Shown piece after piece: positions 9,415 to 64,000 of a stretch of 64,000 nt of DNA (position 1 is its first letter; each line of letters starts with the position of its first letter). The position numbers and the translations under genes were made by a program. Source of the stretch: an uncultured Candidatus Saccharibacteria bacterium (lineage in GTDB: Bacteria > Patescibacteriota > Minisyncoccia > Phycocordibacterales > UBA9973); NCBI GenBank assembly GCA_964624665.1, contig CAZUZG010000001.1, forward strand, positions 7,310 through 71,309, written 5' to 3'. The notes beneath the pieces were generated by a model, which worked only from the letters and a program-made list of their open reading frames with translations, did not search any database and was not told the origin of the DNA.

Positions 9415-12400
9415 TTATTCCTTCTTCGTTCTCTTTATTGAATCATAAACAATCTTAGAAATAGCATCCCTCTTGTTTTTTTTATCTTCCTCCGACAATT
9501 CCTCAAAGTTTACTTTCACCCGATACCCCTTAACTGTTTCCTCTGATGTACTTTCTTTTGCAATTACATTCAATAAATAATCTTGTATTTCACCTGGCTC
9601 AAAAACAAAGACTCTTTGAATATCCACTAAGTCAATATTAGCCTGGACAGTTTTTCTAATTTTCTCAATGTTCTTTTTTTCAGTTGGGCAGACTATAACA
9701 AAATTATAACCTGCCTTTAGACACTTCTTCACATTCTGTAATTCGTGCGCATCGCTTGTAGTAGAAGAAATTTCAACTGCAATTTTTAAATTGTTGCGGA
9801 TTAGCCCAACATCAACCTTTCCATTTGGTATCGCTTCTTCAATGGTTGCTTTAAAGCCAAAGGATTCGGCTATTCGTTTAATGAAGTTTTGAAAATACCG
9901 GTGTTCTGTTTCTTCTTTTTTAACTGGCGGCATCTTCGGTCCCTTTATAGCCTCAACTAAATTTTGGGAAACCTGATCTGATACAAATTCTTTTACTGTT
10001 TCTTTTTCAACTGGCTTCTCTTGTTTTATTGGCTTGGGTACTGATTGAACTGGCTCTGGCTTTTCTTCTTTTAAAGTTTCTGATTGGTAATAGAAGCGTG
10101 CAATTAATTCTTCAATCTCAGCTTTAGGTTTGCTGTATTTATCTCTCGAAAGATTTGTTATCTCTCTCCTTCTGCGCTTCCCTATCTCTGAATCTATATT
10201 CGGATTATTAAACACACTTAGGTTAAAGTCATTATCCGGCTTATCTATTTTTACAATCGCTTCTCCAGTTTCTAAATTCTGTAAGTTCTTTGAATCAAAG
10301 AAGGTAAAGCCATCGGCCAATTTACGGCTGTCTACTTCTCCTACCTTAAAGCAAATTCTTGTTCCGGCATTAGTTATTGAATTCGCTAAATCAACATCAC
10401 TCCTTGATAGTTGTAACAGGTCTTGGTGTGAAAGAGTAAGTCCCAAGCTAAATTTACGTCCCCCGGAAAGTATTGATTCCATTGAGGGGCTTAAAAAATA
10501 TTGGCATTCATCTACATAAACAAAAAAAGGTTTTCTATCTTCTTCTCTTATTAATTGTCTCGCAATTGCGACTTGATGTATTTTAGAGAGAATAAGGCTG
10601 CCTAAAAGATTGCTGTTCTCGATTCCAATCAATCCCTGTGATAGTTTTATCAGTAGTATCTTGTTTGAATTTACTATTTCATCAAAATTCAATCCGTCTC
10701 TTTGCGCAACCATATTGCGGATAAGTTTTGGGCGAAGGAATGAATCCAGGCGGGTTAATATCGGTCCGATTGAGTTGGTGCGTAATAACGGGTATTCTTT
10801 TTGCCAGTAATATACAATGCTTGGTTCGGTAACTGTTTTTAGAAATTCCGTCCTGAATGCCTTATCAACCAAAAATCTTTTTAAATCAATTAATGTGCCT
10901 CCGGCTTTGCTTTCAATAAAGGCGGCAACCGCATTGGCAAGTACGGCTGACATTTGTGCACCCCAGCCGGTTGTATATCTTTGGAATATAGAAACAAGGT
11001 CGGATGACAAAACATCCTTTTCAATTTCTGAATAGGCTTTCAAAATATTTATACCAACAGGAAACTCGGCGTCCGAGGGATCAACCAAGACTATGTCTTT
11101 ACACCTATTCTCCGGGATATGCTCAATTATGGAATCTATTAGATCACCATGTGGATCAAGCACAGCGCACCCTTTACCGCTTTTAATATCCTGAATTATT
11201 AAATTTTCCAAGAGCGTTGATTTTCCAGAACCCGTGACACCTATGACATGAAGATGTTTTAGGCGCTGGGTTGCACTTAGAGAAACTTTTGTTCCGCTAT
11301 CTCCGCAAACATTTTCGCCTAAGATAAAATCATGGCCTAAAGCAATGGCTGGCGCAGCTTTGGATTTCTTTGGTTCTGAATATATTTTTGTCGAGTTAAA
11401 TGAATGCGGAAAATGAACCAACGAAACAAGTTCTTCGCTGTTTAAAATCATTCCGCTTAAATGCGTTTGCCTTAATTTAAAGTCCTCATATCTTGTTTCA
11501 AATGGATAATCATCATGGGTTATTGGTATAAAGGCATTACTGCTTGGGTCTTTGAAAGTAGAAAAGGCCGTGCCAACATTAATGCCAAGTTCTAATACCT
11601 TTCGATCATCTAAACCTTGAACAAAAGTATTTACAACAACAGCAAATAAAGGTTTTGAAATTTTCTTCTTTGTCAGTTGTGCCATATCCGGCGCATCTGA
11701 AAAATATGATTCACCCTTGTGATTCATCACTGCCTTCACAATACTTTCAGACCAGGGCTTTTCAACTCCTTTAAATAGTACTTGCATGGCGCAAACTTCA
11801 CCATCCCGAAGATTATCCATTAGTCCCAACAATGCTATTAAAGGATCAAGTGAAAAACTCTTGTATGTTTTTATCGGGCGCATAAATTCTTCGGCAAGCC
11901 CAATACCATATATGGCGGAATTTCGTTCCTGAACTATGGCTTTGTTTAAGACTTCTTTTTCTTCTTGTAAAAAAGCATTGGGAAAAAATGTCTTTAATTG
12001 ATTGCGTAATTGATTAGCATCTGCGCTCCGGCATACATACTGGCAAACAATTCTCAGTTTGGTCCCGATTATCTCAAATGCAATTGGATATTTTGAATAA
12101 CTGAGCAGGGTTAAGAAACTTTCCGCTTCTTCTCCGCTAAATCTTTCGCCTTTCGGAAATGATATTTGTATTTCGTGATAGCCTGTTTGTCCGTCAAGCC
12201 TTTTAGGTTGGATATATTCTTCATCATCCGAAACAAAATTTCTATTAATATCCTGGTCAGATGAAACTACACCGACACTTTTAAAAAACGATTCAAATAG
12301 TCCGGTATTCGTCGGAGCATTATTCTGTCCCTTTGCATATCCTTTAAATGGCTTAAACGGCGGTTCTAATTCAACTGGATAGTCCCACAATAGCCAACCT

Positions 12401-12462
12401 CTGCCGCGACCTTCCCAGGAATAAAACTGCTCTGATATATTTTCGCCAAATGGTATATACAT
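9415..12462 (-). CDS. Large HerA/FtsK/TraD-like (DUF87-type) P-loop ATPase with ~400-aa N-terminal and ~300-aa C-terminal extensions
   Basis: Walker A HLHVIGVTGSGKSTL; KGCAVLDPHGDL motif; Walker B KPFFVYVDECQYF; LGLTLSHQDLLQL sensor region. Paralogous to ORF 60219..61514. The C-terminal region (GKVDVGLI..KIAVEISS..NFVIVCP) has an alternating beta/alpha pattern that could be a restriction-endonuclease-like fold; this is inference. Confidence 0.7.
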   Translation of the reverse strand: MYIPFGENISEQFYSWEGRGRGWLLWDYPVELEPPFKPFKGYAKGQNNAPTNTGLFESFFKSVGVVSSDQDINRNFVSDDEEYIQPKRLDGQTGYHEIQISFPKGERFSGEEAESFLTLLSYSKYPIAFEIIGTKLRIVCQYVCRSADANQLRNQLKTFFPNAFLQEEKEVLNKAIVQERNSAIYGIGLAEEFMRPIKTYKSFSLDPLIALLGLMDNLRDGEVCAMQVLFKGVEKPWSESIVKAVMNHKGESYFSDAPDMAQLTKKKISKPLFAVVVNTFVQGLDDRKVLELGINVGTAFSTFKDPSSNAFIPITHDDYPFETRYEDFKLRQTHLSGMILNSEELVSLVHFPHSFNSTKIYSEPKKSKAAPAIALGHDFILGENVCGDSGTKVSLSATQRLKHLHVIGVTGSGKSTLLENLIIQDIKSGKGCAVLDPHGDLIDSIIEHIPENRCKDIVLVDPSDAEFPVGINILKAYSEIEKDVLSSDLVSIFQRYTTGWGAQMSAVLANAVAAFIESKAGGTLIDLKRFLVDKAFRTEFLKTVTEPSIVYYWQKEYPLLRTNSIGPILTRLDSFLRPKLIRNMVAQRDGLNFDEIVNSNKILLIKLSQGLIGIENSNLLGSLILSKIHQVAIARQLIREEDRKPFFVYVDECQYFLSPSMESILSGGRKFSLGLTLSHQDLLQLSRSDVDLANSITNAGTRICFKVGEVDSRKLADGFTFFDSKNLQNLETGEAIVKIDKPDNDFNLSVFNNPNIDSEIGKRRRREITNLSRDKYSKPKAEIEELIARFYYQSETLKEEKPEPVQSVPKPIKQEKPVEKETVKEFVSDQVSQNLVEAIKGPKMPPVKKEETEHRYFQNFIKRIAESFGFKATIEEAIPNGKVDVGLIRNNLKIAVEISSTTSDAHELQNVKKCLKAGYNFVIVCPTEKKNIEKIRKTVQANIDLVDIQRVFVFEPGEIQDYLLNVIAKESTSEETVKGYRVKVNFEELSEEDKKNKRDAISKIVYDSIKRTKKE

Positions 12463-12472
12463 TCATTACAGA

Positions 12473-12967
12473 TTATATCCTCTTATTTCCCCTCGATATT
12501 TTTTGATTCCTAACAACTTCTATCGCTGCAATAATACTTTTATGCACCATTGCTTTGTAAGCTGTGTCTAAATGCAATTCGCCCCCACCATTACTTTCCT
12601 CTAATGTTCTTACTATGTCTTTGGCAATTGGAATGCTTGATAGCAGATCAAGTCCGGAGCTTGATGATTTAAACAGCTTCCAGCCGATATAATGGTTATG
12701 GATTTGATGGATGCAAAGAACATCAAAGTAATATGATTTAAATTCAATTCTTAAACCTTTTCTGTATGCAGAAAACAAACTTTCCTTTTTCCATATCAAC
12801 TTCATTTTGCTTTTCTGAAATTCATTATGGCGCAAAATTTCCATCACGACTTCATAAAATTCATCAGCCGAAATACCAAGATTATCCATTATCTCATTCC
12901 AACTCCCGATTTCTTTCGGTGGTTTGAACATACTGGAACCTGCATTAAATCCATCTGAAAATGACAT
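12473..12967 (-). CDS. Hypothetical protein (164 aa), middle gene between the J-domain protein and the ATPase
   Basis: 10-nt and 14-nt gaps to its flanking genes on the same strand. No motif recognised. Confidence 0.5.
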   Translation of the reverse strand: MSFSDGFNAGSSMFKPPKEIGSWNEIMDNLGISADEFYEVVMEILRHNEFQKSKMKLIWKKESLFSAYRKGLRIEFKSYYFDVLCIHQIHNHYIGWKLFKSSSSGLDLLSSIPIAKDIVRTLEESNGGGELHLDTAYKAMVHKSIIAAIEVVRNQKISRGNKRI

Positions 12968-17300: not shown

Positions 17301-17482
17301 TAAAACAATCGTTTATTTAATTCATCCTTTTCTTTTTTATCCATTTTAGTTTATTGTTGTTTGCTTCTTCCATAGAATAACAAATCGGCCCAGAAGCCTA
17401 TAGTATCATTAAACAGATTCAAGTATAAAACTCATTGCCTCAATTTTGCTAAATAATATCATAAGAAGGCTTAGGTGATTAC

Positions 17483-18505: not shown

Positions 18506-18764
18506 TTTACAAATAAAATAATAAAATCTTATTTCCCTTATAGTGAACTACATACCAAAGTCAAAATTATTTTATGGCACCTTTTCATCGATTTAGCCTC
18601 CCTTTTCCTAAAAAGAGTATCTTCGAATACGTTTAGGATTCTATCTACATCTTTTTGGATAAGACGGAGTACTATTCCTTTCAGGCTATATCTAAACGAC
18701 TATTGCAATTTGATAAAAATCTATAAAAAAGGAATCAAATATTTTTTAAATTTGAATTGGTATT

Positions 18765-20204: not shown

Positions 20205-21956
20205 CTAAAATCCTGGAGAATATCCTAGAAATTCTATGATCGTAGCATGGTGCTTTTTTTGAGGTTTAGCCCTTCCATTTTCCCAATAAGTCAACGAATC
20301 TTCACTTATTTTTAAGATAATTGCCACATCTTTCTGGAAAAGCCCGAGTTCCTTCCGCCGCTTCCTTAGGTGGTCACCTAATGTATTGACGGGCAGTCTT
20401 TTAAACTCTGGTTTTATGCCTTTTAAAACTACCGGCCTCAATGGATAGGCAAGAGAGAGAATGGTCAATGAAACTATGTGGTTTCGTAGACCATTCTCTG
20501 TGAATTTCGGAGAGGCATTGAGGTTGTTGAGCGTAATCTCAATCTCGGTTTTGTTGACTATTATCTTGTTGGTAATGGATTCAATAATAAAGCGCTTGTC
20601 TTCATCGTTGTAGGTTCCCCAATTTTCATAAACGTTTTGGCTTTTGGAAATTGCCTCATTGTTGTTTATGACCTGAATCTTCATAAAATCGACATCGGAT
20701 TGGATAATGGCTAATTCCTCCTCTTTTTGGTTTAAACGCTCTTGTATGGGCATATAGCGCTTATTAAACCCTTCTTTGGGTATCTCTTGGCTGTTTAATA
20801 GGTCAAATAGAGTATCTATCTCAGAATTGATTTTTTTAATGTCAGCTTTAAGCAAATCCCTTTTTTGTTCGCTTTCTTTTACAATATTCTCATTGTCTTT
20901 GAAATGATCTGAAACATCGGTGGTGTTCCAGTATTTTTTGACTTCGTAAAGGAATACTTCCTCGATGTCGGGAATTGTGATTTTGTTCCGGCATTTGGTG
21001 CAAGTATATTTTTTGATACTTGGGATTACATACATCTTGTGATTTGGGTCACAATAGCAGAACATTAAGCCAGAGAATAGGTTAATGGTTTTCTTAGGTT
21101 GCTTCACTCTGTTTATCTTATTCCCATTCAAAATGGAAATACACTGGTTGAATGTTTCTTCTGAAATAATGGCCGGAGCAGGATTAATTATCCATTCGGA
21201 TTCAGGTTTTAACTTCCAGGCCTTTTTATCACCTGTAGACTTGGTATAGTTGCGGATTCTTGAACCCATAGCAATTGGGTCCCGAAGTAACCGGTCTATG
21301 GTTGCATCTGAGAATTCTGAATTATTCCGAGTTCTATATCCCCTCCTATTCAGTTCGTTCGCTACAGTTAATTTGCGTTTGTGCTTTAGGAATAAGTCAT
21401 ACATTAGTTTACGGACTTTAGATTCTTCCTCGTTTATTGCAAGATTCTTTGCTGAATCATACATATATCCAAAAGGGGCTGCGCCACCTAAAGGTTTGCC
21501 CATCTTTGCGCGAATTGGCACACTAGCCGCAACACGTTCAGCGATTTCTTCCCTTTCAAATTGGGCTAATGCTGCAATGACGGTAAAGAATAGCCGTCCT
21601 GCGCCGGAGCTGGTATCAATGCTTTCGTGAAGGCTAATGAGGTCGGCATCATGTTTACGGAACATTTCAGCAAAGCTTAATAGTTCCGTTGTGTTTCTTG
21701 ATAGCCTGGCAAGCTTTGAGAATATTAAGCCAGTGATCTTACCCGATTTAATGTCGCTTAGCATCTTGGCTGTTTCAGGATAATCCATTACTGATTTTCC
21801 TGATTTCGCATCGAGTCTATACATTTCTTTTACCTCCCACCCTTTGGCTTCGGCATATAGTCGCCCACGCTTTTCGTGAACCTCTGGGCTTTCACTATTT
21901 ACTGAGTCTTCATGGCTTACACGAATCCATAGTCCTACTGATTTACTGCTTTGCAT
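20205..21956 (-). CDS. Large serine recombinase (resolvase domain + recombinase domain + zinc ribbon) with C-terminal XRE-like HTH
   Basis: GLWIRVSHEDS (catalytic Ser context) and LHESIDTSSGAGRLFFTVIAALAQFEREEIAERV (resolvase); CYCDPNHKMY...CTKCRNK (zinc ribbon); C-terminal LGDHLRKRRKELGLFQKDVAIILKISEDSLTYWENG. Confidence 0.85.
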   Translation of the reverse strand: MQSSKSVGLWIRVSHEDSVNSESPEVHEKRGRLYAEAKGWEVKEMYRLDAKSGKSVMDYPETAKMLSDIKSGKITGLIFSKLARLSRNTTELLSFAEMFRKHDADLISLHESIDTSSGAGRLFFTVIAALAQFEREEIAERVAASVPIRAKMGKPLGGAAPFGYMYDSAKNLAINEEESKVRKLMYDLFLKHKRKLTVANELNRRGYRTRNNSEFSDATIDRLLRDPIAMGSRIRNYTKSTGDKKAWKLKPESEWIINPAPAIISEETFNQCISILNGNKINRVKQPKKTINLFSGLMFCYCDPNHKMYVIPSIKKYTCTKCRNKITIPDIEEVFLYEVKKYWNTTDVSDHFKDNENIVKESEQKRDLLKADIKKINSEIDTLFDLLNSQEIPKEGFNKRYMPIQERLNQKEEELAIIQSDVDFMKIQVINNNEAISKSQNVYENWGTYNDEDKRFIIESITNKIIVNKTEIEITLNNLNASPKFTENGLRNHIVSLTILSLAYPLRPVVLKGIKPEFKRLPVNTLGDHLRKRRKELGLFQKDVAIILKISEDSLTYWENGRAKPQKKHHATIIEFLGYSPGF

Positions 21957-24988: not shown

Positions 24989-26341
24989 TTGATTATGATA
25001 AAACTATTAACCCGTTGTTTAACCTTCCTATTTATATTTCAATTAAGTAAAAATCTCAATGCTCAAATCATTACAACCATCGCTGGTGGAACATTAGGCT
25101 ACTCGGGTGATGGTGGTCCGGCGATAAGTTCTCAATTAACATATCCTGAAGGCGTTTGTGTAGATGATTCCGGCAATGTATATATCTCAGATGCAGGAAA
25201 TAATAGAATTCGAAAAATAAGCGCTTCAACAGGTTTTATTAATACAATTGCAGGTACGGGAACAGCAGGCTATTCTGGTGATAGCGGTCAAGCCGTTAAT
25301 GCTGAAATTAATCAACCTATTGGCATTGCGTTGAGTCGTTTAACCGGTGATGTATATTTTGCTGAGTATGGAAATAACACCATTCGAAAAGTAAATCAAT
25401 CGACAGGCTTAATATCAACCGTTGCAGGAACTGGGATAGCTGGTTATTCAGGAGATAACGGGCCTGCAATAAATGCGAAATTATATTTTCCACTGGGAGT
25501 TTGTTTGGATACTTTAGACAATGTTTATTTTTCGGATGCATGGTATGGACGTGTGCGAAAAGTGGAAGTTGCAACTGGAATTATAACAACGATAGTTGGA
25601 AATGGTATATCCGGTTATAATGGTGATGGAATTCTTGCAACAAATGCCCAATTAAATTATCCAACAGGGGTTTGTTTAGATGATTCCAGTAATTTATATA
25701 TAACAGATTGCTTTAATTCACGAGTAAGGAAAGTAAATGCAATTACAGGGCTCATTAGTACAATTGCCGGAAATGGAACTTCTGGCTTTTCAGGAGATGG
25801 CGGAATCGCAACCAGTGCAACATTAACAAGTCCTGCGGGAGTTTTTGTTGATGATACCGGACATGTTTATATTTCAGTTCCAAATAACAGAAGAATTAGA
25901 AAAGTAAATGCTTCTACTGGTATAATAACAACAATTGCAGGAAATGGTAGTGGAGGTTTTGCCGGAGATGGAGGACTTGCAACAGACGCAAAATTAAATA
26001 ATCCGAAAAGTCCATTTTTTGATAAACAAGGTAATTTATATATAGCGGATTCACAAAATAATAGAATTCGAAAAGTGGTATCTAATATTACCGCAATTAA
26101 GAATAGTGGAGGGCTCAGTGAAATTAGTATTTACCCTAATCCTGCTAACGAGCTGGTAAACATAACTGGTATAACGGGTGCAACCTCAATAAGGATGTAC
26201 GACGTGATCGGCAACTTAGTAATGCAAAAAGAAACAGATGTGAATACAACAATAGAAACAAATCAATTTGAAAATGGTATATACCTGCTTATTGTAAAAA
26301 GCGAAAAAGTATCAGTAAATAAAATTGAAATAAGTAAATAG
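24989..26341 (+). CDS. NHL-repeat beta-propeller protein with T9SS type A C-terminal sorting domain
   Basis: Signal peptide. Seven or more repeats of YP.GVcvD.sGNvYisD.gNnRIRKi..stG.I.TiAG.G..GysGDgG.A. C-terminus ISIYPNPANELVNITGITGATSIRMYDVIGNLV...GIYLLIVKSEKVSVNKIEISK is a Por_Secre_tail-type CTD. Confidence 0.8.
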   Translation: MIMIKLLTRCLTFLFIFQLSKNLNAQIITTIAGGTLGYSGDGGPAISSQLTYPEGVCVDDSGNVYISDAGNNRIRKISASTGFINTIAGTGTAGYSGDSGQAVNAEINQPIGIALSRLTGDVYFAEYGNNTIRKVNQSTGLISTVAGTGIAGYSGDNGPAINAKLYFPLGVCLDTLDNVYFSDAWYGRVRKVEVATGIITTIVGNGISGYNGDGILATNAQLNYPTGVCLDDSSNLYITDCFNSRVRKVNAITGLISTIAGNGTSGFSGDGGIATSATLTSPAGVFVDDTGHVYISVPNNRRIRKVNASTGIITTIAGNGSGGFAGDGGLATDAKLNNPKSPFFDKQGNLYIADSQNNRIRKVVSNITAIKNSGGLSEISIYPNPANELVNITGITGATSIRMYDVIGNLVMQKETDVNTTIETNQFENGIYLLIVKSEKVSVNKIEISK

Positions 26342-55886: not shown

Positions 55887-57854
55887 TTATTTAACCCTCA
55901 CAACCATTATCTCCACCCTCCGATTTTTCTCAAACTCTTCATCGCTATTGGCTCTGGGGTAAAGCTGTTCCTTGTCGCCAAGGCCGACATAAGACAGTCT
56001 ATCTTTCTCAATATTTTTAGATATAAGAATGTTATAGACAGTTTGAGCTCTTAGTTCAGACAGATGTTGATGATTCGGATTATTGCACAGTCCTCCGTTA
56101 AACGGATGATTTACATGGCCTTGTATTTGTATAATCATCTTCGGATTCTTCTTCATTAATTTGCATAATGAAATAACAGACGGATAAGATGTTCGCAGAA
56201 GTTCAGGAGAGTCAGGTTGAAAATTAATGTTTCCTAAGGTATATTTTCCACCTTTTTTCAGTTTCGGTAAAATCGTTTTGATGTTAGCCAGCTCCTTGTT
56301 TTTTGCGTCTGATTCGGAAACTTTAAATTCTTTAGTGGAAACAAAAAAATTGTCATTCATGATATTGATCGTGTAAGACCTGCCTTGCATCAAATCAGCT
56401 GAGAACATATACTTCCCGGTCATTGGGTTGCTCCTGATCTTCTTAATCTCATGCCGTTCATCCTCGACTGTTATCTCGGCTTCAATCGGTTTGTTTTCAT
56501 CGTTTAATACCGTTCCGCTAAATTCTACTTTTTTTCGATAGCCGAAAATCAATTCAACCCTGCGATTTTGTTCATGCTCGCTTTCCGAACATTCAACGCT
56601 ATCCTTGCAACGATTGAGCAATTGCGACTCCCCTTTGCCGTAACCAGTTAATCTTCCTTTTTGAATTCCATTTTTGTTTAGGTGGTTGATAATAGATTGA
56701 ACTCTTTTATTTGATAAAATCAGGTTTGCCTGCTCTCCCCCTTTTGAATCGGTATGGCCGATAAGCTCAAGGTGTATTTTGGGATTTGCTTTCATATATG
56801 AAACAACGCTTTCCAATTCCCCCTTTGCCTTTTCTGAAATATCATAATTGCTATTGGCAAAGGAAATACGTTTTACAAGAGTCGTTGAAGTTGCAGGGTT
56901 TGGGGGCGATTTAGCCAGCTTCAATACCGGATCAGCTTCTTCTGTTAGTTCCAGCTTTACGATATCAGCCGGCAATATTGAAAACATGAAATCACCTTTC
57001 GCATTTCTCTTTATTTCTCTTACAACCTTACCCGTCTGCCTGGCTAAGAATAGCTTTTGGTCTTTTTCCAGCTTTGCGTCAATTTTAAGATTTAATTCGC
57101 TTTTATCTTTTACGCTGAGTGAAAAGTCGCCCCATTGGTCGGTAACGGTTGATTCGATGATTTTCCCGTCTTTGTCCAGAGATTTAACGGGGATAGATTT
57201 GCCATTGGATCGTTCCTGATTACTGCTTTCAATTATCAGCCTTGCAAATAGATGCTTGGGTTTTTCTGTTGGAACTGTTGAAATGGTTTGAATTGTCGGT
57301 CGGCCGGAGACAATCAGGAATTGCGTGTCTTCAAGTTTTTCAAGCTTGGGTCTTGTTGCCCATGGTTCTCTTTTTTCTACAAGTATGTCAGATAATTGGA
57401 AGCAAGCACTCTTTTCTTTAATCGCTTTTTGGTATAGGTAGGAGAAAGCCGTTTCTAAAGGCATATATCCTTCTTCGGCGGAATCACGTAATAATTGAAT
57501 ATAATTGCTCTTTACCGAATTATTTATCCCCTTTTTTTGCCGGCTTTCGTCTTCATAGTAAATATGCCGGATTTTTCCTTTGCTATCCTCGAAATAGAGA
57601 TAAAAGTTAAGCACCGAGATTTTTACGGGCGTTTTGCTAAACCGTTTTTCTATTTTAATTAAAGAGTCGATATCCAAAATTTCGTAATTGCCCGGATTGA
57701 TATATATGAAGTTCTGCTTTATCTCGGCATTACCTTTTATATTCTTAGCGGTGATTTTGTATTGTGGTTGGTATTGGGTTTGTCCGCTTGCTTCGTTTAA
57801 AGGCGCGATTAGTATTGGAATAAGCAATAATATTGAGATCGTAATTTTTTTCAT
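55887..57854 (-). CDS. OmpA-family protein with two C-terminal OmpA-like peptidoglycan-binding domains
   Basis: Signal peptide. ISFANSNYDISEKAKGELESVVSYMKANPKIHLELIGHTDSKGGEQANLILSNKRVQSI and a second ..QIQGHVNHPF...LSELRAQTVYNILISKNIEKDRLSYVGLGDKEQLYPRANSDEEFEKNRRVEIMVV. Confidence 0.8.
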   Translation of the reverse strand: MKKITISILLLIPILIAPLNEASGQTQYQPQYKITAKNIKGNAEIKQNFIYINPGNYEILDIDSLIKIEKRFSKTPVKISVLNFYLYFEDSKGKIRHIYYEDESRQKKGINNSVKSNYIQLLRDSAEEGYMPLETAFSYLYQKAIKEKSACFQLSDILVEKREPWATRPKLEKLEDTQFLIVSGRPTIQTISTVPTEKPKHLFARLIIESSNQERSNGKSIPVKSLDKDGKIIESTVTDQWGDFSLSVKDKSELNLKIDAKLEKDQKLFLARQTGKVVREIKRNAKGDFMFSILPADIVKLELTEEADPVLKLAKSPPNPATSTTLVKRISFANSNYDISEKAKGELESVVSYMKANPKIHLELIGHTDSKGGEQANLILSNKRVQSIINHLNKNGIQKGRLTGYGKGESQLLNRCKDSVECSESEHEQNRRVELIFGYRKKVEFSGTVLNDENKPIEAEITVEDERHEIKKIRSNPMTGKYMFSADLMQGRSYTINIMNDNFFVSTKEFKVSESDAKNKELANIKTILPKLKKGGKYTLGNINFQPDSPELLRTSYPSVISLCKLMKKNPKMIIQIQGHVNHPFNGGLCNNPNHQHLSELRAQTVYNILISKNIEKDRLSYVGLGDKEQLYPRANSDEEFEKNRRVEIMVVRVK

Positions 57855-58274: not shown

Positions 58275-58544
58275 ATGGCAAAGAAAATAGCTAAGGCTGT
58301 TAAAAAGAAAAATGTCGAATCCGGCGAAACCGAATACCTGAAGAAAGTCGGAGAAAGATTGAAGTATTATAGAAAGAAGGCCGGTTATACCAGCTATGAA
58401 TACTTTGCCTATGAACACGGATTTAGCAGGCCACAATACGGTAAATATGAGGCTGGTGCAAATATTCAATTAAATACTTTAATGAAGATACTGAGAGCTC
58501 TTAATGTCACCCTTGAAGAGTTTTTTAAAGGGTTTAATTACTAA
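58275..58544 (+). CDS. XRE-family HTH transcriptional regulator
   Basis: LKYYRKKAGYTSYEYFAYEHGFSRPQYGKYEAG...LMKILRALNVTLEEFF. Confidence 0.65.
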   Translation: MAKKIAKAVKKKNVESGETEYLKKVGERLKYYRKKAGYTSYEYFAYEHGFSRPQYGKYEAGANIQLNTLMKILRALNVTLEEFFKGFNY

Positions 58545-59076: not shown

Positions 59077-59289
59077 TTAATTTCTTGTATTTGTATTTGA
59101 AGCAATAATTTTCGCTTCCATCTCTTTTAACTTGGCATCCATTTTATCGCTGTTTCTCGAACTGACCGCCCAAATAGCAGCCGGAATCCAACCAATTAAA
59201 GTGCATTGAAGTATAAGACAGACAATACCTCTAAGAATTTTTCCATTTATTAGAAAAGAAAGCCATGGGAATAAGATTGCTAATAACAT
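59077..59289 (-). CDS. YqaE/Pmp3-family small proteolipid membrane protein
   Basis: LLAILFPWLSFLINGKILRGIVCLILQCTLIGWIPAAIWAV matches the UPF0057 two-TM pattern. Confidence 0.6.
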   Translation of the reverse strand: MLLAILFPWLSFLINGKILRGIVCLILQCTLIGWIPAAIWAVSSRNSDKMDAKLKEMEAKIIASNTNTRN

Positions 59290-59562
59290 AAAATTTGATT
59301 TTTTTCACTCACCTACTCATTGGCTTTTCGGCATTCGCCCCGTACTCTTTTATAAAAAGGATTTTCCGGTATTCCCTTGTTTATGGAGAATTAATTTTTT
59401 GCTACATGCAAAAAATTAAGCCCTGATAATGAAATCGAATGTATGTTAAAAATATCAAAATCACAATAAATTGATTAAAAAATTAAAAAAAACAGCTGTT
59501 TGCTTTACAAAAACACTTTCATTTGGAAAATGTTTACCTTTAAAGGAAATTAAATCAGAACG

Positions 59563-60216
59563 ATGCCAAGTAAAAAAATACCCAAAAATTATCAAGATTT
59601 TGACGTAGAGGAAGACGGTATAATTGCCAATGAATCCATTGTTAAGTATGACTCAAACGCAAATATTAAGAGGCCCAAAATAACTAATGGCGGCTTCCAA
59701 ATTAATATTCTTAAAGGTAAAATTGGACAAATTGTAGTTGAAAGTGTTTTGAATAATTTCAATTATCAAACATTCGCCTTTGGCTACGAGCATATTGTTA
59801 ATTCCACAACATTAAGCAAACTTGATTGGAAAAAGGAGGATGACAATACATCTAAACTTAGAATTAATCCGGATATATTGGTACTGAATGAAGAGAAAGG
59901 GCTGTTAATGCCCGTTGAAGTAAAATCGATTTTCAAGAATGATCGCGATAAACTTAATCTTACTAAAGTTAAATTTGAGATGTATCGTAAAAACTGGCCT
60001 CATGCTATTTTAGCAATATTCCACTATCAAACTTTTAAAATCTATTGTGAAGAATTTTGCAAGATTGAAGCAATAGATTCAACTAAGAAAATTGGCGAAG
60101 TTGAAATAAATTATCTAGGTCTTAAAAGCCTTTGCCATTTTTTTCCTGAGATTAAAGACGAAGCTCTAAACAACTATCTTAATATGATTTCAAAAGAAAT
60201 TTTCAAAGTAGAATAG
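59563..60216 (+). CDS. PD-(D/E)xK-fold nuclease (putative type II restriction endonuclease)
   Basis: 217 aa. NPDILVLNEEKGLLMPVEVKS is a canonical PD-x14-E-V-K arrangement. Convergent with the ATPase/MTase operon. Confidence 0.55.
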   Translation: MPSKKIPKNYQDFDVEEDGIIANESIVKYDSNANIKRPKITNGGFQINILKGKIGQIVVESVLNNFNYQTFAFGYEHIVNSTTLSKLDWKKEDDNTSKLRINPDILVLNEEKGLLMPVEVKSIFKNDRDKLNLTKVKFEMYRKNWPHAILAIFHYQTFKIYCEEFCKIEAIDSTKKIGEVEINYLGLKSLCHFFPEIKDEALNNYLNMISKEIFKVE

Positions 60217-60218
60217 AT

Positions 60219-61514
60219 CTAAAGCCGCCTGTTTCGATTTTTCAAATGCTCTTCTATCTCATCTTTATTCCTTGCATATTGCATCCGAGAAAATCTTATT
60301 ACATCATCCTTAAATGAAATATCTCTTTCAGGTATGGGCAAAGTTCTTGCACTAAATGGCCTGGAAGTCATTCCGTCAATCATTAGTTTTAAATATATGG
60401 AATGATTAGGTAAGTTTGCCAAGTCTTGTACGCCAAATACCGGTTTAAATTCATGTTCTAAATACCCAGCATCTTCTGCGCCAACTCTAAATGAAATAAT
60501 GGTTCCGGTATTGCCAAAAACTGCTGTTCTAATTTTCTCATGTAATTGCCCTACATACTGGTGCGCCAAGAGCAAGGATAAACCATACTTGCGGGCTTCC
60601 GAAAGAATATCACCAAAAGATAGATTGGCAAAAGAGCTGAACTCGTCTACATACAGATAAAAAGGCTTTCGCTCATGTTCTGCTTGATCAGCCCGCCGCA
60701 AGGCTGCAAGCTGCAATGTTGTAACAAACATCCCGCCCAAAAGCGCAGTGTTATCCTCCCCAATTTTTCCCTTTGAAAGATTAGCAATAAATATTTTCCC
60801 TTCATCCATTATGTTTTGAATCCGGAAGCTTCTTGATTCCTGGCCGACAATATTTCTAAGCGGTGGGCTTGATAAAAATTGTCCCATTTTATTTAAAATC
60901 GGCGCAACTGCTTCACTCTGCAACCAAGGTGAATATTTTTCAAATTCTCCCTGCCAAAAGGCTTTGATATATGGATTAGTTAATCGGCCAACAACTTTAT
61001 CTCGGAAAACCTTATCGGTTAAAAGTATTGGAATATCAAGCAATGTACTACGTGGGTTTTCCAATAAAGTAAATAAAGTATTTCTTAATATGTGTTCCAA
61101 TCTTGGTCCCCAAAATTCAAACCATATCTTTTTAAAAGTTGAAATTAATCCGGAAACTAATAAATGATGATTATCTGGGTGCACATTCCCCAGTGGATTA
61201 TATGCCATTGGAAAATCCAAATCCCCGGCATTGAAATATATGACATCAGCAATTCTTTCTTGTGGTACATGATTCAGTATTTCTTCAGACAAATCTCCAT
61301 GCGGATCAATCAACCCAATCCCCTTTCCTTTTTTAATATCAGAGATAACCATATTAGCTATAAGTGTTGATTTACCAACACCAGTCTTTCCCACAACATA
61401 GATATGTCCACTTCGGTCTTTGTCCTTGATACCGAAAACATCTTTAGTATTTCTATAATCGGTTGTACCGAAGTGGGTGACCGAATCAATATTCTCATTT
61501 TTGTTTTCATTCAT
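60219..61514 (-). CDS. HerA/FtsK/TraD-like (DUF87-type) P-loop ATPase, 431 aa; paralog of the ATPase core in 9415..12462
   Basis: Walker A HIYVVGKTGVGKSTL; KGKGIGLIDPHGDL; Walker B KPFYLYVDEFSSF; LSLLLAHQYVGQL. Alignable over ~330 aa with the 1015-aa protein. 7-nt gap to the upstream MTase gene. Confidence 0.7.
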   Translation of the reverse strand: MNENKNENIDSVTHFGTTDYRNTKDVFGIKDKDRSGHIYVVGKTGVGKSTLIANMVISDIKKGKGIGLIDPHGDLSEEILNHVPQERIADVIYFNAGDLDFPMAYNPLGNVHPDNHHLLVSGLISTFKKIWFEFWGPRLEHILRNTLFTLLENPRSTLLDIPILLTDKVFRDKVVGRLTNPYIKAFWQGEFEKYSPWLQSEAVAPILNKMGQFLSSPPLRNIVGQESRSFRIQNIMDEGKIFIANLSKGKIGEDNTALLGGMFVTTLQLAALRRADQAEHERKPFYLYVDEFSSFANLSFGDILSEARKYGLSLLLAHQYVGQLHEKIRTAVFGNTGTIISFRVGAEDAGYLEHEFKPVFGVQDLANLPNHSIYLKLMIDGMTSRPFSARTLPIPERDISFKDDVIRFSRMQYARNKDEIEEHLKNRNRRL

Positions 61515-61521
61515 ATATTAT

Positions 61522-62514
61522 TTAAAATTTTGTAGAGCTAATAATTGCGACCATGATTTCTCGAATAACATTTACCGTAACTGCATTTCCTAAACACTTG
61601 TATCTCTGTGTATCGCTTACACCCTCGGTCCAGCCATCAGGAAACCCTTGCAATCGCTCGCACTCAGTCGGAGTGAAATAGCGCAATTTCATTCCATCAA
61701 CTGTTCCTTGAGACATGCTTGTGGTTAAAGTGTGTGTCTTATCTTTAATTACCCTGCCATGCCTTGTTTTACTACGGGGATAATCATAGGAAATACCATC
61801 TCCTTTTGTAGCGTATGTAAAGCCACCCTTTTTAGTGGCTTCAAATATTCTTAGTCTTTTCTTTTGTACCGGGATACGGATATAACCTCCATTGGACTGC
61901 GCCCCGTAATAGCGTGCTGTGAGTGTGGGCACAACAATATTCTTTTTGTCGCTCTTTCCGAAAGGAAATACTTTGGGTCTGCCGGTTCCTCTAAGATGTC
62001 CAATAATAAAGACTCTTTCTCTGTTCTGTGGAACTCCGAAATTCTTGCTGTTAAGCACTTGCCATTGCACGTCATACCCCAATTCAACAAGCGAGGTAAT
62101 GATGGTTTTAAAAGTTTTTCCGTTGTTGTGAGAAAGCAATCCTTTAACATTTTCAAGGAAGACAAGTCGAGGTTTTTTTGCTCGCAGTATTCTCGCAATT
62201 TCAAAAAAGACTTCCCCTCTGGAATCTTCAAACCCTTTTCTTTTCCCAGCAATGCTAAAAGCTTGGCAAGGAAACCCTCCAACGAGCAAATCGAAATCTG
62301 GGAGTTCCGATGTTTTGATTTTTGTGACATCTCCATAGTTTTTGTGATTACCAAAATGCCTTTCGTAAATGCAGGCTGCGTGCTTATCGATTTCCGCGTA
62401 ACCAACACAATCAAATTGTCGCCTTTTCTTAAAACTAACCTGAACAATTTTTAATGCTTGTTGTATGCCCAATTCAAAGCCCCCAATACCGCTGAATAAC
62501 GATAAATATTTCAT
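61522..62514 (-). CDS. dcm: DNA (cytosine-5)-methyltransferase
   Basis: Motif I LFSGIGGFELG; motif IV GFPCQAFSIAG; motif VI LVFLENVKGL; motif VIII QNRERVFIIG; motif IX/X TPTECERLQGFPDGWT...GNAVTVNV. Confidence 0.9.
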   Translation of the reverse strand: MKYLSLFSGIGGFELGIQQALKIVQVSFKKRRQFDCVGYAEIDKHAACIYERHFGNHKNYGDVTKIKTSELPDFDLLVGGFPCQAFSIAGKRKGFEDSRGEVFFEIARILRAKKPRLVFLENVKGLLSHNNGKTFKTIITSLVELGYDVQWQVLNSKNFGVPQNRERVFIIGHLRGTGRPKVFPFGKSDKKNIVVPTLTARYYGAQSNGGYIRIPVQKKRLRIFEATKKGGFTYATKGDGISYDYPRSKTRHGRVIKDKTHTLTTSMSQGTVDGMKLRYFTPTECERLQGFPDGWTEGVSDTQRYKCLGNAVTVNVIREIMVAIISSTKF

Positions 62515-62592
62515 AGTAGGTTTAGAAGAACTATTTTTTTCCTTTCATTCTCGACCTAAACAAAATAGTATCTCTTTGAAAAATATATTGGC

Positions 62593-62632
62593 AGTAGTGG
62601 GAATTTTGCTTTAAAGCAAAATTCCCACTACT
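62593..62632. promoter_or_regulatory. 40-bp perfect palindrome AGTAGTGGGAATTTTGCTTT|AAAGCAAAATTCCCACTACT in the divergent intergenic region upstream of the MTase operon
   Basis: Read directly, zero mismatches. ~80 bp upstream of the dcm start and ~185 bp upstream of the small + strand ORF. Confidence 0.6.
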
Positions 62633-62816
62633 TAACTCCTTCTCGATTGTAAGGATAATAGAACCCGGATTAAGTTCTTTCGGGTGATTTAATAATCAAG
62701 CCTTTATCCGACAAAAGCTACACATGTCGAAGTGATTTCAAAAAAGGGAGTAGTTCGGCTGCTTCCTTTTTTGAAATCAACCACGTCTATTAACAAATAA
62801 AAGGAGAAATGATAGT

Positions 62817-63086
62817 ATGAAAAAGTTACACAAAAGCCACAATGATACAAAAGAACTTGAACCTAAAGAGGGGCAACAGGGGCTTTTGTGTAACAACAAA
62901 GTATCATCCAGTTGTCCCTCTTTGGGTTTTGAGAAATTAGAAATTACTCCTGAAAGGATAAGGACATTTTGCGACTTAGGCATTACCCTTAAAAAAATTC
63001 ACACTAGGCTTTTAATGGAGGGATTTAAGTTTGAGGACGGAAAAATAATTGAACCCAATGAAAGAAAACAAAATCGAATTGAATAA
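62817..63086 (+). CDS. Small hypothetical protein (89 aa) overlapping the recombinase start; possible regulator or directionality factor
   Basis: ORF only. Lys/Glu-rich. Confidence 0.3.
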   Translation: MKKLHKSHNDTKELEPKEGQQGLLCNNKVSSSCPSLGFEKLEITPERIRTFCDLGITLKKIHTRLLMEGFKFEDGKIIEPNERKQNRIE

Positions 63087-64000
63087 AAAATTCTCAGAGT
63101 GCTATTTCATTTACACACGAAAAAGCACCGATGATTCAGAAAATCAAAAAAACTCCATCGCGTATCAGGTGCTAGAAAATAAAAAATTTTCTGACAAAGA
63201 GAACATCAAAATTGCTCAAATAAACATTGAGGGATTTTGCACTAATGGAATTATTGAAGAACATCATTCTGGTTACAAGCAGGATGATAGTTTTGAATCA
63301 AATGATAATGGGACAATCACCTATAAAGTTCTAAGGCCAAAATTCCTTACGTTAATAAACTTCTTGAGGAGTAAAAAAATTAAAGGTGTAGTCTGCCTAT
63401 GTTGGGACAGATTAAGTAGAAATGAATCGGATGATGTAATAATTAAAAAACTAATTACTCAAGGAATTGATGTACGCTTTGTCCAGGCTAATTATGAAGA
63501 CAGTAGCTCCGGTGCTTTACACATGGATATAGACGGAATGTTCTCAAGGCATTACTCACGGGTTATAAGCGAAAAAGTAAAAGCAAGCTACAAAAAATTA
63601 AGGAGCGAAGGACGATGTCTTTATGCTGCTCCAATAGGATACTTAAATAAAGGGTCTGACGATAAACCCCTTGACCCAAAAAGAGCCCCCATTGTTAAAC
63701 AGATATTTGAGCTATATGCAACAGGGCAATGGAGTTTTATCTCACTCTCAAAGTGGGCAAACAAACAAGGATTAACAACAAAACCCTTACGCCGAAAAAG
63801 AACAAAAGAAGAAAAAGCAAATGGAATGGAATTAGAAAAGATTCCAAAAATAAACAAGGCTATTACAGCAAAGACAATTGAAAATATTCTAAAAAACCCT
63901 TTTTATACCGGTAAAATTGTTGCCAATGGCGCTATAATCGACAGCAAGGTCCATCAAGCCCTAATTGATACTAATCTATTTTACCAGGTGCAATCCTCAC
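63058..64000 (+). CDS. Large serine recombinase, 3'-partial (runs off the window)
   Basis: MKENKIELNKKFSECYFIYTRKSTDDSENQ (catalytic Ser region) ... VVCLCWDRLSRNESDD ... recombinase domain ..LYAAPIGYLNKGSD..IVKQIFELYATGQWSF. The start coordinate is uncertain by +/-1 because of a one-base discrepancy near 63000 between my reading and the ORF track. Confidence 0.8.
   Translation, partial: MKENKIELNKKFSECYFIYTRKSTDDSENQKNSIAYQVLENKKFSDKENIKIAQINIEGFCTNGIIEEHHSGYKQDDSFESNDNGTITYKVLRPKFLTLINFLRSKKIKGVVCLCWDRLSRNESDDVIIKKLITQGIDVRFVQANYEDSSSGALHMDIDGMFSRHYSRVISEKVKASYKKLRSEGRCLYAAPIGYLNKGSDDKPLDPKRAPIVKQIFELYATGQWSFISLSKWANKQGLTTKPLRRKRTKEEKANGMELEKIPKINKAITAKTIENILKNPFYTGKIVANGAIIDSKVHQALIDTNLFYQVQSS

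What the first reader, a model, noticed from the sequence alone, without database searches (positions are those of the whole stretch)
59563..62514. Restriction-modification-like cluster with an embedded HerA/TraD-like ATPase: Dcm-type C5-MTase, 431-aa ATPase and a convergent PD-(D/E)xK nuclease
Seen: dcm (all C5-MTase motifs) is followed 7 nt later on the same strand by a 431-aa P-loop ATPase (GKTGVGKST, DPHGDL, YVDEF, LLLAHQ). A 217-aa ORF with textbook PD-x14-EVK ends 2 nt from the ATPase stop on the opposite strand. Established: classical type II RM needs only MTase and REase. HerA/FtsK-like ATPases are components of several recently described defence systems and of type IV coupling proteins. 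Inference: either a three-component MTase-ATPase-nuclease defence system (the ATPase regulating or translocating the nuclease), or a type II RM that captured a coupling-protein-like gene. The same ATPase core recurs in the 1015-aa protein at 9415..12462, which implies modular reuse within one island.
Basis: partly seen in the sequence, partly recalled or inferred. Interest (0 to 1): 0.65.

Follow-up and report, generated by a model that had tools for sequence, protein, structure and literature searches.

The report
Mobile-element ATPase flanked by methylase and nuclease
The three genes are real, but they are not a three-part restriction or defence system: the ATPase is the conserved signature gene of a very widespread, uncharacterised family of integrating mobile elements, and the methylase and the nuclease-like gene are add-ons placed next to it.

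Summary
A C5 DNA methyltransferase (61522-62514, -) lies 7 nt upstream of a 431-aa P-loop ATPase (60219-61514, -). A convergent 217-aa ORF with a PD...EVK motif (59563-60216, +) ends 2 nt from the ATPase stop.

The system-level reading is not supported. The ATPase is a TrwB/VirD4-like coupling-protein fold with no membrane anchor. It belongs to a family kept at 55-65% identity across at least 10 phyla. In 49 of 66 comparable loci it lies within 3 kb of a large serine or tyrosine recombinase. Here a serine recombinase starts at 63058 and runs off the window; a contig from the same sample shows a tRNA 3' end just beyond it.

A C5 methylase touches the ATPase only in this window, in its 91%-identical relative L001, and in one further element where the gene order is reversed and no nuclease is present.

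The 217-aa protein belongs to a stand-alone PD-(D/E)xK-like family. In 80 other loci it never co-occurs with the ATPase and almost never with a methylase.

In 9 other genomes the 1015-aa paralogue sits directly downstream of the small ATPase. No relaxase or T4SS was found, so the ATPase's role (DNA translocation for transfer or maintenance) is inferred. Interest is moderate.

The parts
60219..61514 (-). 431-aa soluble TrwB/VirD4-like P-loop ATPase. It has the nucleotide-binding domain and the all-alpha domain but no transmembrane segment. It is the conserved core gene of the element family.
   Evidence: Pfam TrwB_AAD_bind, T4SS-DNA_transf, DUF87 and TraG-D_C, all weak. A profile of the family hits TrwB in the PDB at 6e-10. 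AF2 model: pLDDT 76, pTM 0.80. Foldseek top hits are DotL and TrwB at TM about 0.58, then HerA. Maximum Kyte-Doolittle 19-residue hydropathy is 1.07. Homologues and their neighbourhoods.
61522..62514 (-). 330-aa C5 cytosine DNA methyltransferase, first gene of the MTase-ATPase operon. It is an accessory gene of the element.
   Evidence: Relatives at about 50% identity are on temperate phages and in phage-like contigs. A 63%-identical relative sits directly after a 58%-identical ATPase in L167.
59563..60216 (+). 217-aa ORF of an uncharacterised stand-alone family with a PD-(D/E)xK-type motif (E76, PD104, E119xK121), in the variable slot downstream of the ATPase.
   Evidence: No Pfam, PADLOC, NCBIfam, PHROG or PDB hit. 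75 remote homologues. Conserved motif. Family members give only sub-threshold hits, all to PD-(D/E)xK clan families. Contexts. The slot downstream of the ATPase is variable.
62515..62816 (.). 302-bp divergent intergenic region between the MTase-ATPase operon and the small-ORF/recombinase operon. It presumably holds both promoters.
   Evidence: ORF map. No promoter analysis was done.
62817..63086 (+). 89-aa small protein (cluster c14) that precedes the serine recombinase in 10 loci. Its function is unknown; a recombination directionality or regulatory factor is a guess.
   Evidence: No Pfam hit.
63058..64000 (+). N-terminal 314 codons of a large serine recombinase that runs off the window end.
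   Evidence: Translation. 79% identical to the 577-aa Resolvase+Recombinase protein of L001. L170, from the same sample, extends it to a tRNA 3' end.
59077..59289 (-). 70-aa Pmp3-like membrane peptide, the last gene syntenic with L001 on this side.
9415..12462 (-). 1015-aa paralogous ATPase: an N-terminal domain, a TrwB-like ATPase at residues 400-785, and a conserved C-terminal domain of about 150 aa. In 8 other genomes it directly follows the small ATPase and a c10 ORF; in a ninth (L073) it lies within 3 kb on the opposite strand.
12473..12967 (-). 164-aa c10-like ORF that precedes the large ATPase. In other genomes this ORF lies between the small and the large ATPase.
3791..5544 (+). Other recurrent genes of the element family: an XRE HTH (c3), an HTH_36/DnaD-like replication-initiator-like protein (c5), a RuvC-like protein (c2, weak) and a SymE-like protein (c24).
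20205..21956 (-). Second large serine recombinase (583 aa) of the same cluster.

Best explanation
The cluster is the recombinase-proximal end of an integrated mobile element, not a single system.

Shown:
- The 431-aa protein is an intact, membrane-anchor-less TrwB/VirD4-like ATPase.
- Its orthologues are the signature gene of a very widespread family of integrative elements that carry large serine or tyrosine recombinases.
- In this window the recombinase operon is divergent from the MTase-ATPase operon. The recombinase gene ends at a tRNA 3' end just beyond the window.

Inferred:
- After excision, the ATPase, probably as a hexamer and probably together with its 1015-aa paralogue, binds and pumps element DNA.
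- This would either hand the DNA to a transfer channel supplied in trans, as integrative mobilizable elements do, or serve post-excision maintenance or resolution.
- The C5-MTase was inserted at the head of the ATPase operon. It most likely acts as a solitary, element-borne methylase that protects element and host DNA from cytosine-sensitive restriction when the element enters a new cell.
- The 217-aa PD-(D/E)xK-like gene occupies the variable cargo slot after the ATPase. It is an independent accessory nuclease whose target is unknown.
For: ATPase fold and intact catalytic motifs. No TM segment.

Distribution: 8000 of 8000 scored candidates were significant, and the top 120 are 60-68% identical (apart from the 91% copy P0001), from Ignavibacteria, Nitrospirota, Planctomycetota, Patescibacteria, Bacteroidota and a Woesearchaeota record. 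At least 543 loci were found in one-genome-per-species contigs, against 6 in 2.9 million viral contigs.

Neighbourhoods:
- A serine recombinase lies within 3 kb in 41 of 66 non-CPR loci and a tyrosine recombinase in 9; 49 loci have either.
- The recombinase overlaps a truncated comM in 8 loci (7 distinct), which marks an element end.
- Even a 40%-identical plasmid homologue sits 1.3 kb from a recombinase.
- Recurrent neighbours are ArdC, RadC, DUF932, PDDEXK_1, HTH proteins and a replication-initiator-like protein.

This window: the recombinase starts at 63058. The tRNA 3' end is in L170, and L001 diverges from L170 exactly there.

The MTase is accessory. It touches the ATPase only in this window, in L001 and, in reversed order without a nuclease, in L167. 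An unrelated N6_N4 MTase takes the same position in L045 and L051. Its closest other relatives are phage-borne.

The nuclease-like gene is accessory.
Against: - No relaxase, oriT or T4SS component was recognised in the window or among recurrent neighbours, so the transfer role is only an analogy.
- The left end of the element was not found inside the window, so its size and content are not defined.
- DNA methylases of two families sit directly next to the ATPase in 5 loci. That could mean a functional link and not a shared cargo slot.
- The MTase, ATPase and 217-aa genes were inherited together in two diverged elements (79% nt identity), so a working R-M pair split by the ATPase cannot be excluded.
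- The fold of the 217-aa protein could not be tested: the AF2 single-sequence model had pLDDT 29.5.
- ORF calling in the comparison loci was a crude longest-ORF method.
Confidence: 0.6

Rival explanations
1. The MTase and the 217-aa protein are a working type II restriction-modification pair, serving as an addiction or defence cargo, whose two genes happen to flank the element's ATPase gene.
For: The MTase is complete and closest to M.HhaI. The 217-aa protein has a conserved PD-(D/E)xK-type motif. Both genes keep the same positions in two elements that have diverged to 79% nt identity.
Against: The two genes are separated by 1.3 kb of another gene, which is unusual for R-M pairs. The 217-aa family is not methylase-linked elsewhere: 2 of 80 loci have a C5-MTase within 5 kb, and only 2 have any xPPY-motif neighbour within two ORFs. 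Some members sit beside polA and fpg. The closest MTase relative in the same element family (L167) has no nuclease partner. The 217-aa protein is only 57% identical between the two elements, against 85% for the MTase and 91% for the ATPase.
Confidence: 0.2
2. A three-component MTase-ATPase-nuclease defence system, in which the ATPase loads or translocates the nuclease on unmethylated DNA.
For: Tight spacing of 7 nt and 2 nt. The PADLOC mad8 model (MADS) hits at 1e-12, with weak HerA hits. Foldseek also finds HerA defence ATPases and the DndH C-domain. Methylases recur next to the ATPase in 5 loci.
Against: The trio exists only here and in L001. About 90% of ATPase loci have no adjacent methylase, and none has the 217-aa family. 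By the authors' method description, the MADS gene profiles were built from HHpred matches against the PDB, so the mad8 hit is probably a generic ATPase-fold match; the other seven MADS genes and its N6-MTase are absent. The ATPase's consistent partner is a recombinase, not an effector.
Confidence: 0.07
3. The small and large ATPases, with their associated nucleases (PDDEXK_1 in many loci, a possible C-terminal nuclease-like domain in the 1015-aa paralogue, the 217-aa protein here), form a conserved ATPase-nuclease module. This module would act against competing DNA or process element DNA ends in the way HerA-NurA does. It would not be a coupling protein.
For: A PDDEXK_1 gene lies in the flanks of 18 loci, within 3 kb of the ATPase in 14 and usually divergent from it. 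The operon small ATPase - c10 - large ATPase is present in 8 genomes, and the pair lies within 3 kb in 9. The large paralogue has a conserved C-terminal H..Q..E..D..E..K pattern. The ATPases lack membrane anchors.
Against: The C-terminal domain gave no significant match to the 217-aa family (hhalign probability 0.2%) or to any PDB chain. Structural similarity is higher to coupling proteins than to HerA. No HerA-type partner effector is conserved.
Confidence: 0.13

Closest known systems
Type IV coupling proteins (TrwB of R388, VirD4, TraD, DotL)
   Same: The P-loop nucleotide-binding domain and the inserted all-alpha domain. These are the best sequence and structure matches: TrwB at 6e-10, DotL and TrwB at Foldseek TM about 0.58. 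The length equals that of the soluble TrwB-deltaN70 fragment.
   Different: No N-terminal transmembrane domain. No relaxase or T4SS nearby. Scores are far below the curated TraD/VirD4 cut-offs, 47 bits against 366. The family is linked to recombinases and has a 1000-aa paralogue.
[quoted passage not shown]
   Same: An integrated element with a serine or tyrosine recombinase and a coupling-protein-like ATPase but no mating-pore genes. ArdC, RadC and DUF932 accessory genes are typical of conjugatively transferred DNA.
   Different: No relaxase or oriT was recognised. The ATPase subfamily is different and membrane-less. The elements occur in phyla where no helper conjugative systems are known, including Patescibacteria. 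Transfer has not been shown.
Orphan VirD4-like T4CP homologues of Patescibacteria (PMC12102498)
   Same: That paper reports 5,713 VirD4-like T4CPs in 2,918 genomes, only 148 of them near virB4, and raises exaptation. Seventeen of my 80 loci are such CPR genes.
   Different: The CPR chromosomal subfamily is longer (about 570 aa) and sits in a conserved c7-c8-ATPase context beside housekeeping genes, not beside recombinases. The window's protein belongs to the 440-aa recombinase-linked branch.
HerA-type ATPases of defence systems (HerA-Sir2/Nezha, HerA-DUF4297, DndH, MADS mad8)
   Same: The same FtsK/HerA/TraD ATPase superfamily. There are weak PADLOC hits and secondary Foldseek hits.
   Different: No conserved effector partner and no match to the system architectures. 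The structural match is worse than to coupling proteins.
M.HhaI-like C5 methyltransferases, solitary phage-borne forms in particular
   Same: All catalytic motifs are present. M.HhaI is the best PDB hit. Relatives at about 50% identity over the full length occur in Streptococcus and Arthrobacter temperate phages.
   Different: The target sequence is unknown. Here the gene is fused into an operon with the element's ATPase.

Membership tests
C5 cytosine DNA methyltransferase (Dcm/M.HhaI type) | Motifs I (FxGxG), IV (PCQ), VI (ENV), VIII (QxRxR) and X (GNAV), and a full-length family profile match | tested here: met
   Motifs read. Pfam 295 bits over 1-325. TIGR00675 scores 314 bits against a 100.65 cut-off.
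Type II restriction-modification system | A cognate endonuclease gene adjacent to the MTase, from a family that is consistently methylase-linked | tested here: not met
   The candidate is separated from the MTase by the ATPase gene. Its family has a C5-MTase within 5 kb in 2 of 80 loci and an xPPY-motif neighbour in 2.
Type II restriction-modification system | Sequence-specific cleavage that is blocked by the MTase's methylation | not testable with these tools
   Needs biochemistry or a methylome.
PD-(D/E)xK nuclease superfamily (217-aa ORF) | A conserved acidic/lysine catalytic motif (E...PD...(D/E)xK) | tested here: met
   E76, P103, D104 and K121 are invariant; position 119 is E in most and Q or H in a few of 28 sequences.
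PD-(D/E)xK nuclease superfamily (217-aa ORF) | The restriction-endonuclease-like alpha-beta-beta-beta-alpha-beta fold, or a significant profile match | tested here: inconclusive
   The AF2 single-sequence model is unusable, pLDDT 29.5. There are no PDB hits. Only sub-threshold Pfam hits were found, to VRR_NUC, NOV_C, TnsA_N and HSDR_N_2 in 3-5 of 28 members.
Type IV coupling protein (VirD4/TraD/TrwB) | A Walker A/B nucleotide-binding domain with an inserted all-alpha domain | tested here: met
   (helices 113-237, pLDDT 84-96).
Type IV coupling protein (VirD4/TraD/TrwB) | An N-terminal transmembrane anchor | tested here: not met
   Walker A begins at residue 42. The maximum 19-residue hydropathy is 1.07.
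Type IV coupling protein (VirD4/TraD/TrwB) | Genetic linkage to a relaxase and/or T4SS genes | tested here: not met
   None was found among the window ORFs that were scanned or among the recurrent neighbour clusters that were annotated in 66 loci. Divergent relaxases could have been missed.
Type IV coupling protein (VirD4/TraD/TrwB) | A score above the curated family thresholds | tested here: not met
   The best NCBIfam hit is SXT_TraD at 47 bits against a cut-off of 366.
MADS (methylation-associated defence system) | An eight-gene mad1-mad8 operon with an N6-methyltransferase | tested here: not met
   Only the mad8 profile hits, at 1e-12. The MTase here is a C5 enzyme. Operon content is taken from the preprint.
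HerA-effector defence systems | A HerA ATPase with an adjacent conserved effector (Sir2, DUF4297, NurA-like) | tested here: not met
   PADLOC HerA hits are partial, at 1e-7 or weaker. No such partner is recurrent.
Integrative (mobilizable) element | A site-specific recombinase at an element end, next to an integration target | tested here: met
   The serine recombinase starts at 63058. A tRNA 3' end lies at its 3' end in L170. Related loci are inserted in comM.
Integrative (mobilizable) element | Both ends (attL and attR) defined, and excision or transfer shown | tested here: inconclusive
   The left end is not in the window. L001 has the order expected of a circular junction, but that is indirect evidence.

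The most novel reading that the evidence does not exclude
The 431-aa protein and its 1015-aa paralogue mark an undescribed family of integrative elements. The family spans phyla and possibly domains, and would move or maintain its DNA with membrane-less coupling-protein-like ATPases, with no recognisable relaxase or T4SS. That would be a new route of horizontal transfer or of post-excision maintenance, reaching from Bacteroidota to Patescibacteria and DPANN archaea.
Probability: 0.25. Interest if true: 0.75.

Novelty: new variant of a known kind. Interest (0 to 1): 0.42.

Why it matters
As a putative defence system, this cluster should not be counted as a new type. It is a mosaic at the end of a mobile element.

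What deserves attention is the ATPase. It is a strongly conserved, membrane-less coupling-protein homologue present in hundreds of species across many phyla. It lies almost always beside a recombinase, is often paired with a 1000-aa paralogue, and has no known function.

If it drives the transfer or maintenance of these elements, it would explain the many 'orphan VirD4' genes reported in genome surveys. It would also define a broad-host-range vehicle for cargo genes, which here may include methylases, toxin-antitoxin pairs and possibly large adhesins.

Tried and rejected
- AF2 of the 217-aa protein as a single sequence failed (pLDDT 29.5).
- PDB sequence and profile searches for the 217-aa family found nothing.
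- I tested whether the 217-aa family is homologous to the conserved C-terminal domain of the 1015-aa ATPase. hhalign gave probability 0.2% and there was no PDB hit, so there is no support.
- I tested whether the ORF after the MTase in L167 is a nuclease. It is a membrane protein unrelated to the 217-aa family.
- The MADS reading was rejected. Only the mad8 profile hits; the paper's methods say the gene profiles came from HHpred/PDB alignments, so I take the hit as a generic ATPase-fold match.
- The phage or packaging-ATPase reading was rejected. There are only 6 IMG/VR loci, and phage hits are at most 28% identical.
- The plasmid reading was rejected. The best plasmid hit is 40% identical, and it too lies next to a recombinase.
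- I tried to recover the source contig beyond the window. Only short Logan contigs are indexed.
- I searched for a second att copy in the window and found none.
- ARAGORN finds no complete tRNA in the window or in L170, because the L170 contig stops inside the tRNA.
- Literature searches for a described family with these features returned nothing specific.
Full report
OBSERVATION. The ORF list shows three genes.
- A 330-aa ORF at 61522-62514 (-).
- A 431-aa ORF at 60219-61514 (-), starting 7 nt after the first.
- A convergent 217-aa ORF at 59563-60216 (+), whose stop is 2 nt from the ATPase stop.

The first ORF is a complete C5 DNA methyltransferase. Pfam DNA_methylase scores 295 bits over residues 1-325, TIGR00675 scores 314 bits, and M.HhaI is the closest solved chain. 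These residues are invariant in 20 homologues from many phyla. The third carries PD104-x14-E119-V-K121. The 1015-aa protein at 9415-12462 shares the ATPase core, 34% identity over 399 aa, E 5e-67.

THE ATPASE. Pfam gives weak hits to TrwB_AAD_bind, T4SS-DNA_transf, DUF87 and TraG-D_C. NCBIfam TraD/VirD4 models hit far below their cut-offs. A family profile finds only TrwB in the PDB, at 6e-10. An AF2 model built on 20 homologues (pLDDT 76, pTM 0.80) matches DotL and TrwB best (TM about 0.58). HerA, DndH-C, Cag-beta and VirB4 follow. The model has a confident all-helical insertion at residues 113-237, equivalent to the TrwB all-alpha domain. There is no hydrophobic segment, and Walker A starts at residue 42. 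The protein therefore corresponds to the soluble part of a coupling protein without the membrane anchor.

THE ATPASE FAMILY AND ITS NEIGHBOURS. The protein search was saturated: 8000 of 8000 scored candidates were significant. Apart from a 91%-identical copy (P0001), the top 120 hits are proteins of about 440 aa at 60-68% identity. They come from Ignavibacteria, Nitrospirota, Planctomycetota, Scalinduaceae, Patescibacteria, Bacteroidota and a Woesearchaeota record. In one-genome-per-species contigs, at least 543 loci encode a relative. I clustered crude ORF calls from 80 of these loci plus L001-L003.

Seventeen loci, mostly Patescibacteria, form a separate subfamily of about 570 aa in a conserved context beside housekeeping genes. 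Counts for the other 66 loci:
- A large serine recombinase lies within 3 kb in 41 and a tyrosine recombinase in 9; 49 loci (74%) have either.
- In 8 loci (7 distinct; L003 and L006 are the same contig) the serine recombinase overlaps a 5' fragment of comM. That marks the end of an inserted element.
- Recurrent neighbours are PDDEXK_1, DUF932, ArdC, RadC, XRE HTH proteins, an HTH_36/DnaD-like replication-initiator-like protein and a RuvC-like protein.
- In 8 loci the small ATPase is followed in the same orientation by a c10 ORF of about 180 aa and a paralogue of 720-1020 aa. A ninth locus (L073) has the large paralogue within 3 kb on the opposite strand.

A 40%-identical plasmid homologue also lies 1.3 kb from a recombinase. 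The family is nearly absent from viral contigs, with 6 loci in IMG/VR. Phage homologues are at most 28% identical. No relaxase or T4SS gene is recurrent.

THIS WINDOW IN THAT FRAME. Upstream of the MTase and divergent from it lie an 89-aa ORF of cluster c14 and a large serine recombinase. The recombinase starts at 63058 and runs off the window. The window also contains:
- the family's HTH, replication-initiator-like, RuvC-like and SymE-like genes at 3791-5544;
- the c10-like ORF and the large ATPase at 9415-12967;
- a second serine recombinase at 20205-21956.

A Logan contig from the window's own sample (L170) extends the recombinase gene. Its 3' end runs into the reverse complement of a tRNA 3' end. 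The related contig L001 shares the sequence only up to TGGCTCCCCG and then diverges. L001 joins the recombinase end directly to sequence homologous to window 605-3702. This is the gene order expected for a circular, excised junction. No second att copy is present in the window, so the left end was not located.

IS THE METHYLASE A PARTNER OF THE ATPASE? In the 66 loci, a C5-MTase lies within 3 kb in three: this window, L001 and L070. It touches the ATPase only in the first two. A search with the MTase found one more case, L167. There a 63%-identical MTase directly follows a 58%-identical ATPase, behind two tyrosine integrases. The next gene in L167 is a membrane protein, not a nuclease. In L045 and L051 an unrelated N6_N4 methylase occupies the same downstream position. 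Other close MTase relatives are in phage-like contexts, beside SSB, Tad2-like, RNase T or primase genes, and on temperate phages at about 50% identity. Methylases are therefore occasional accessory genes placed next to the ATPase. That is typical of solitary protective methylases of mobile DNA (my inference). They are not obligatory partners.

IS THE 217-AA ORF A RESTRICTION ENZYME? At close range only its own sequence and the L001 copy (57% identity) exist. A full HMMER scan found 75 remote homologues. In a 28-sequence alignment, G52, Y75, E76, P103, D104, K121 and W145 are invariant, and position 119 is mostly E. Members give only sub-threshold Pfam hits, but these go to PD-(D/E)xK clan families: VRR_NUC, NOV_C, TnsA_N and HSDR_N_2. 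The fold test failed.

In 80 metagenomic loci of this family:
- the ATPase never occurs;
- a C5-MTase occurs in 2;
- any xPPY-motif neighbour occurs in 2;
- four members sit next to polA and fpg.

The gene downstream of the small ATPase is highly variable. It is convergent in 27 of 64 loci, and the convergent ORFs I listed are all singletons. The 217-aa gene is best read as a stand-alone nuclease-like cargo gene, not as the cognate endonuclease of the MTase. A split R-M pair is not excluded, because both genes were co-inherited in two diverged elements.

DEFENCE-SYSTEM READINGS. PADLOC gives mad8 (1e-12) and partial HerA hits for the ATPase, and MTase_II/DrmMII/DruM for the methylase. MADS is an eight-gene operon with an N6-methylase. 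By the authors' method description, its gene profiles were built from HHpred/PDB alignments, so I read the mad8 hit as a generic ATPase-fold match. No known system architecture is matched.

MECHANISM.
Shown:
- an intact coupling-protein-like ATPase without a membrane anchor;
- membership in a recombinase-linked element family;
- an operon with an accessory C5-MTase;
- location 1.5 kb inside the recombinase/tRNA end of an integrated element.

Inferred:
- the ATPase, with its large paralogue, translocates element DNA after excision, either for transfer through a channel supplied in trans (IME-like) or for maintenance;
- the MTase protects element and host DNA from restriction;
- the 217-aa protein is an independent nuclease.

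The published observation that most VirD4-like genes of Patescibacteria are far from virB4 and may be exapted (PMC12102498) concerns the same superfamily. It shows that the function is open.

VERDICT. The domain calls are right; the reading as one system is not. The cluster itself is ordinary mosaic mobile-element content. The ATPase family behind it is widespread, strongly conserved and uncharacterised, which gives the finding moderate interest.

Noticed in passing
window 605-3702 and 59077-64000; L001 1-12461: The 17-kb contig L001 (79% nt identity) joins the recombinase end directly to homologues of window 3702->605 (HicAB and the 235/235/321-aa genes). It is a circular permutation of the window's gene order. 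Homology stops abruptly at window 605. This could be an excised circular form or a different insertion.
   Followed up: partly
L170 2090-2119 (about window coordinate 64.69 kb, beyond the window): The 3' end of the serine recombinase ORF runs into the reverse complement of a tRNA 3' end (TGGCTCCCCGGGTAGGGATCGAACCTACGA). L001 shares only TGGCTCCCCG and then diverges. The att site is therefore probably inside the recombinase gene's 3' end, at a tRNA gene.
   Followed up: partly
window 9415-9930 (C-terminal ~170 aa of the 1015-aa protein): The C-terminal domain has residues invariant in all 9 aligned sequences (this window plus 8 orthologues): H10, Q14, E22, E31, D40, E53, K69/C70 and a KGYRV motif. 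It looks nuclease-like but has no detectable match to the 217-aa family or to the PDB. A precomputed Pfam DUF8128 hit covers the N-terminal part of the protein.
   Followed up: partly
L002, L003/L006, L018, L031, L033, L043, L065: In these related elements the serine recombinase gene overlaps a 5' fragment (about 350 codons) of comM. They are inserted in comM. The other comM fragment is more than 10 kb away.
   Followed up: partly
L049, L058, L062-L064, L067-L069, L072, L074, L075, L077-L079, L081, L084, L085: A separate ATPase subfamily of about 570 aa, mostly in Patescibacteria and at 53-57% identity to the window protein, sits in a conserved sigma-like (c7) - membrane protein (c8) - ATPase context. 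The neighbours are secDF, alaS and mnmA, not recombinases.
   Followed up: no
window 1-390, 641-1108, 5299-5544: Toxin-antitoxin genes are present: a PemK/MazF-like toxin cut by the window start, a HicB/HicA pair, and a SymE-like ORF. The MazF-like gene's best match lies directly upstream of the ATPase in the Patescibacteria contig L038.
   Followed up: no
window 27662-54838: Four giant ORFs (3241, 1288, 1922 and 1937 aa) with repeated domains lie here, with a 450-aa NHL-repeat protein (24989-26341) bearing a T9SS sorting tail and an OmpA-like 655-aa protein (55887-57854) on either side. All lie between the two parts of the element-like gene set. Whether they are cargo or chromosome is unresolved.
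   Followed up: no
window 16137-19628: A 387-aa protein with an N-terminal HNH_5 domain, a 340-aa unknown protein and a 287-aa RelA/SpoT-domain protein lie together. This may be a small alarmone-synthetase toxin or a defence gene set. PADLOC found nothing.
   Followed up: no
L088, L089, L097, L103: Members of the 217-aa PD-(D/E)xK-like family (about 259 aa, some with an N-terminal Cys-rich extension) lie next to or just upstream of polA, with fpg following. This hints at a DNA-repair role for part of the family.
   Followed up: no
window 58275-58544: An 89-aa XRE HTH protein has weak PADLOC 'control protein' hits (1e-4). It lies 1 kb from the 217-aa gene, but it is not syntenic in L001 and is separated by two genes. 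It is probably not an R-M C-protein.
   Followed up: partly
window 23236-23970: A 244-aa ORF with an N6_Mtase-type domain (phrog_5696, 3e-38) is recurrent in 6 related loci (cluster c21). It is a second methylase-like gene of the element family.
   Followed up: no
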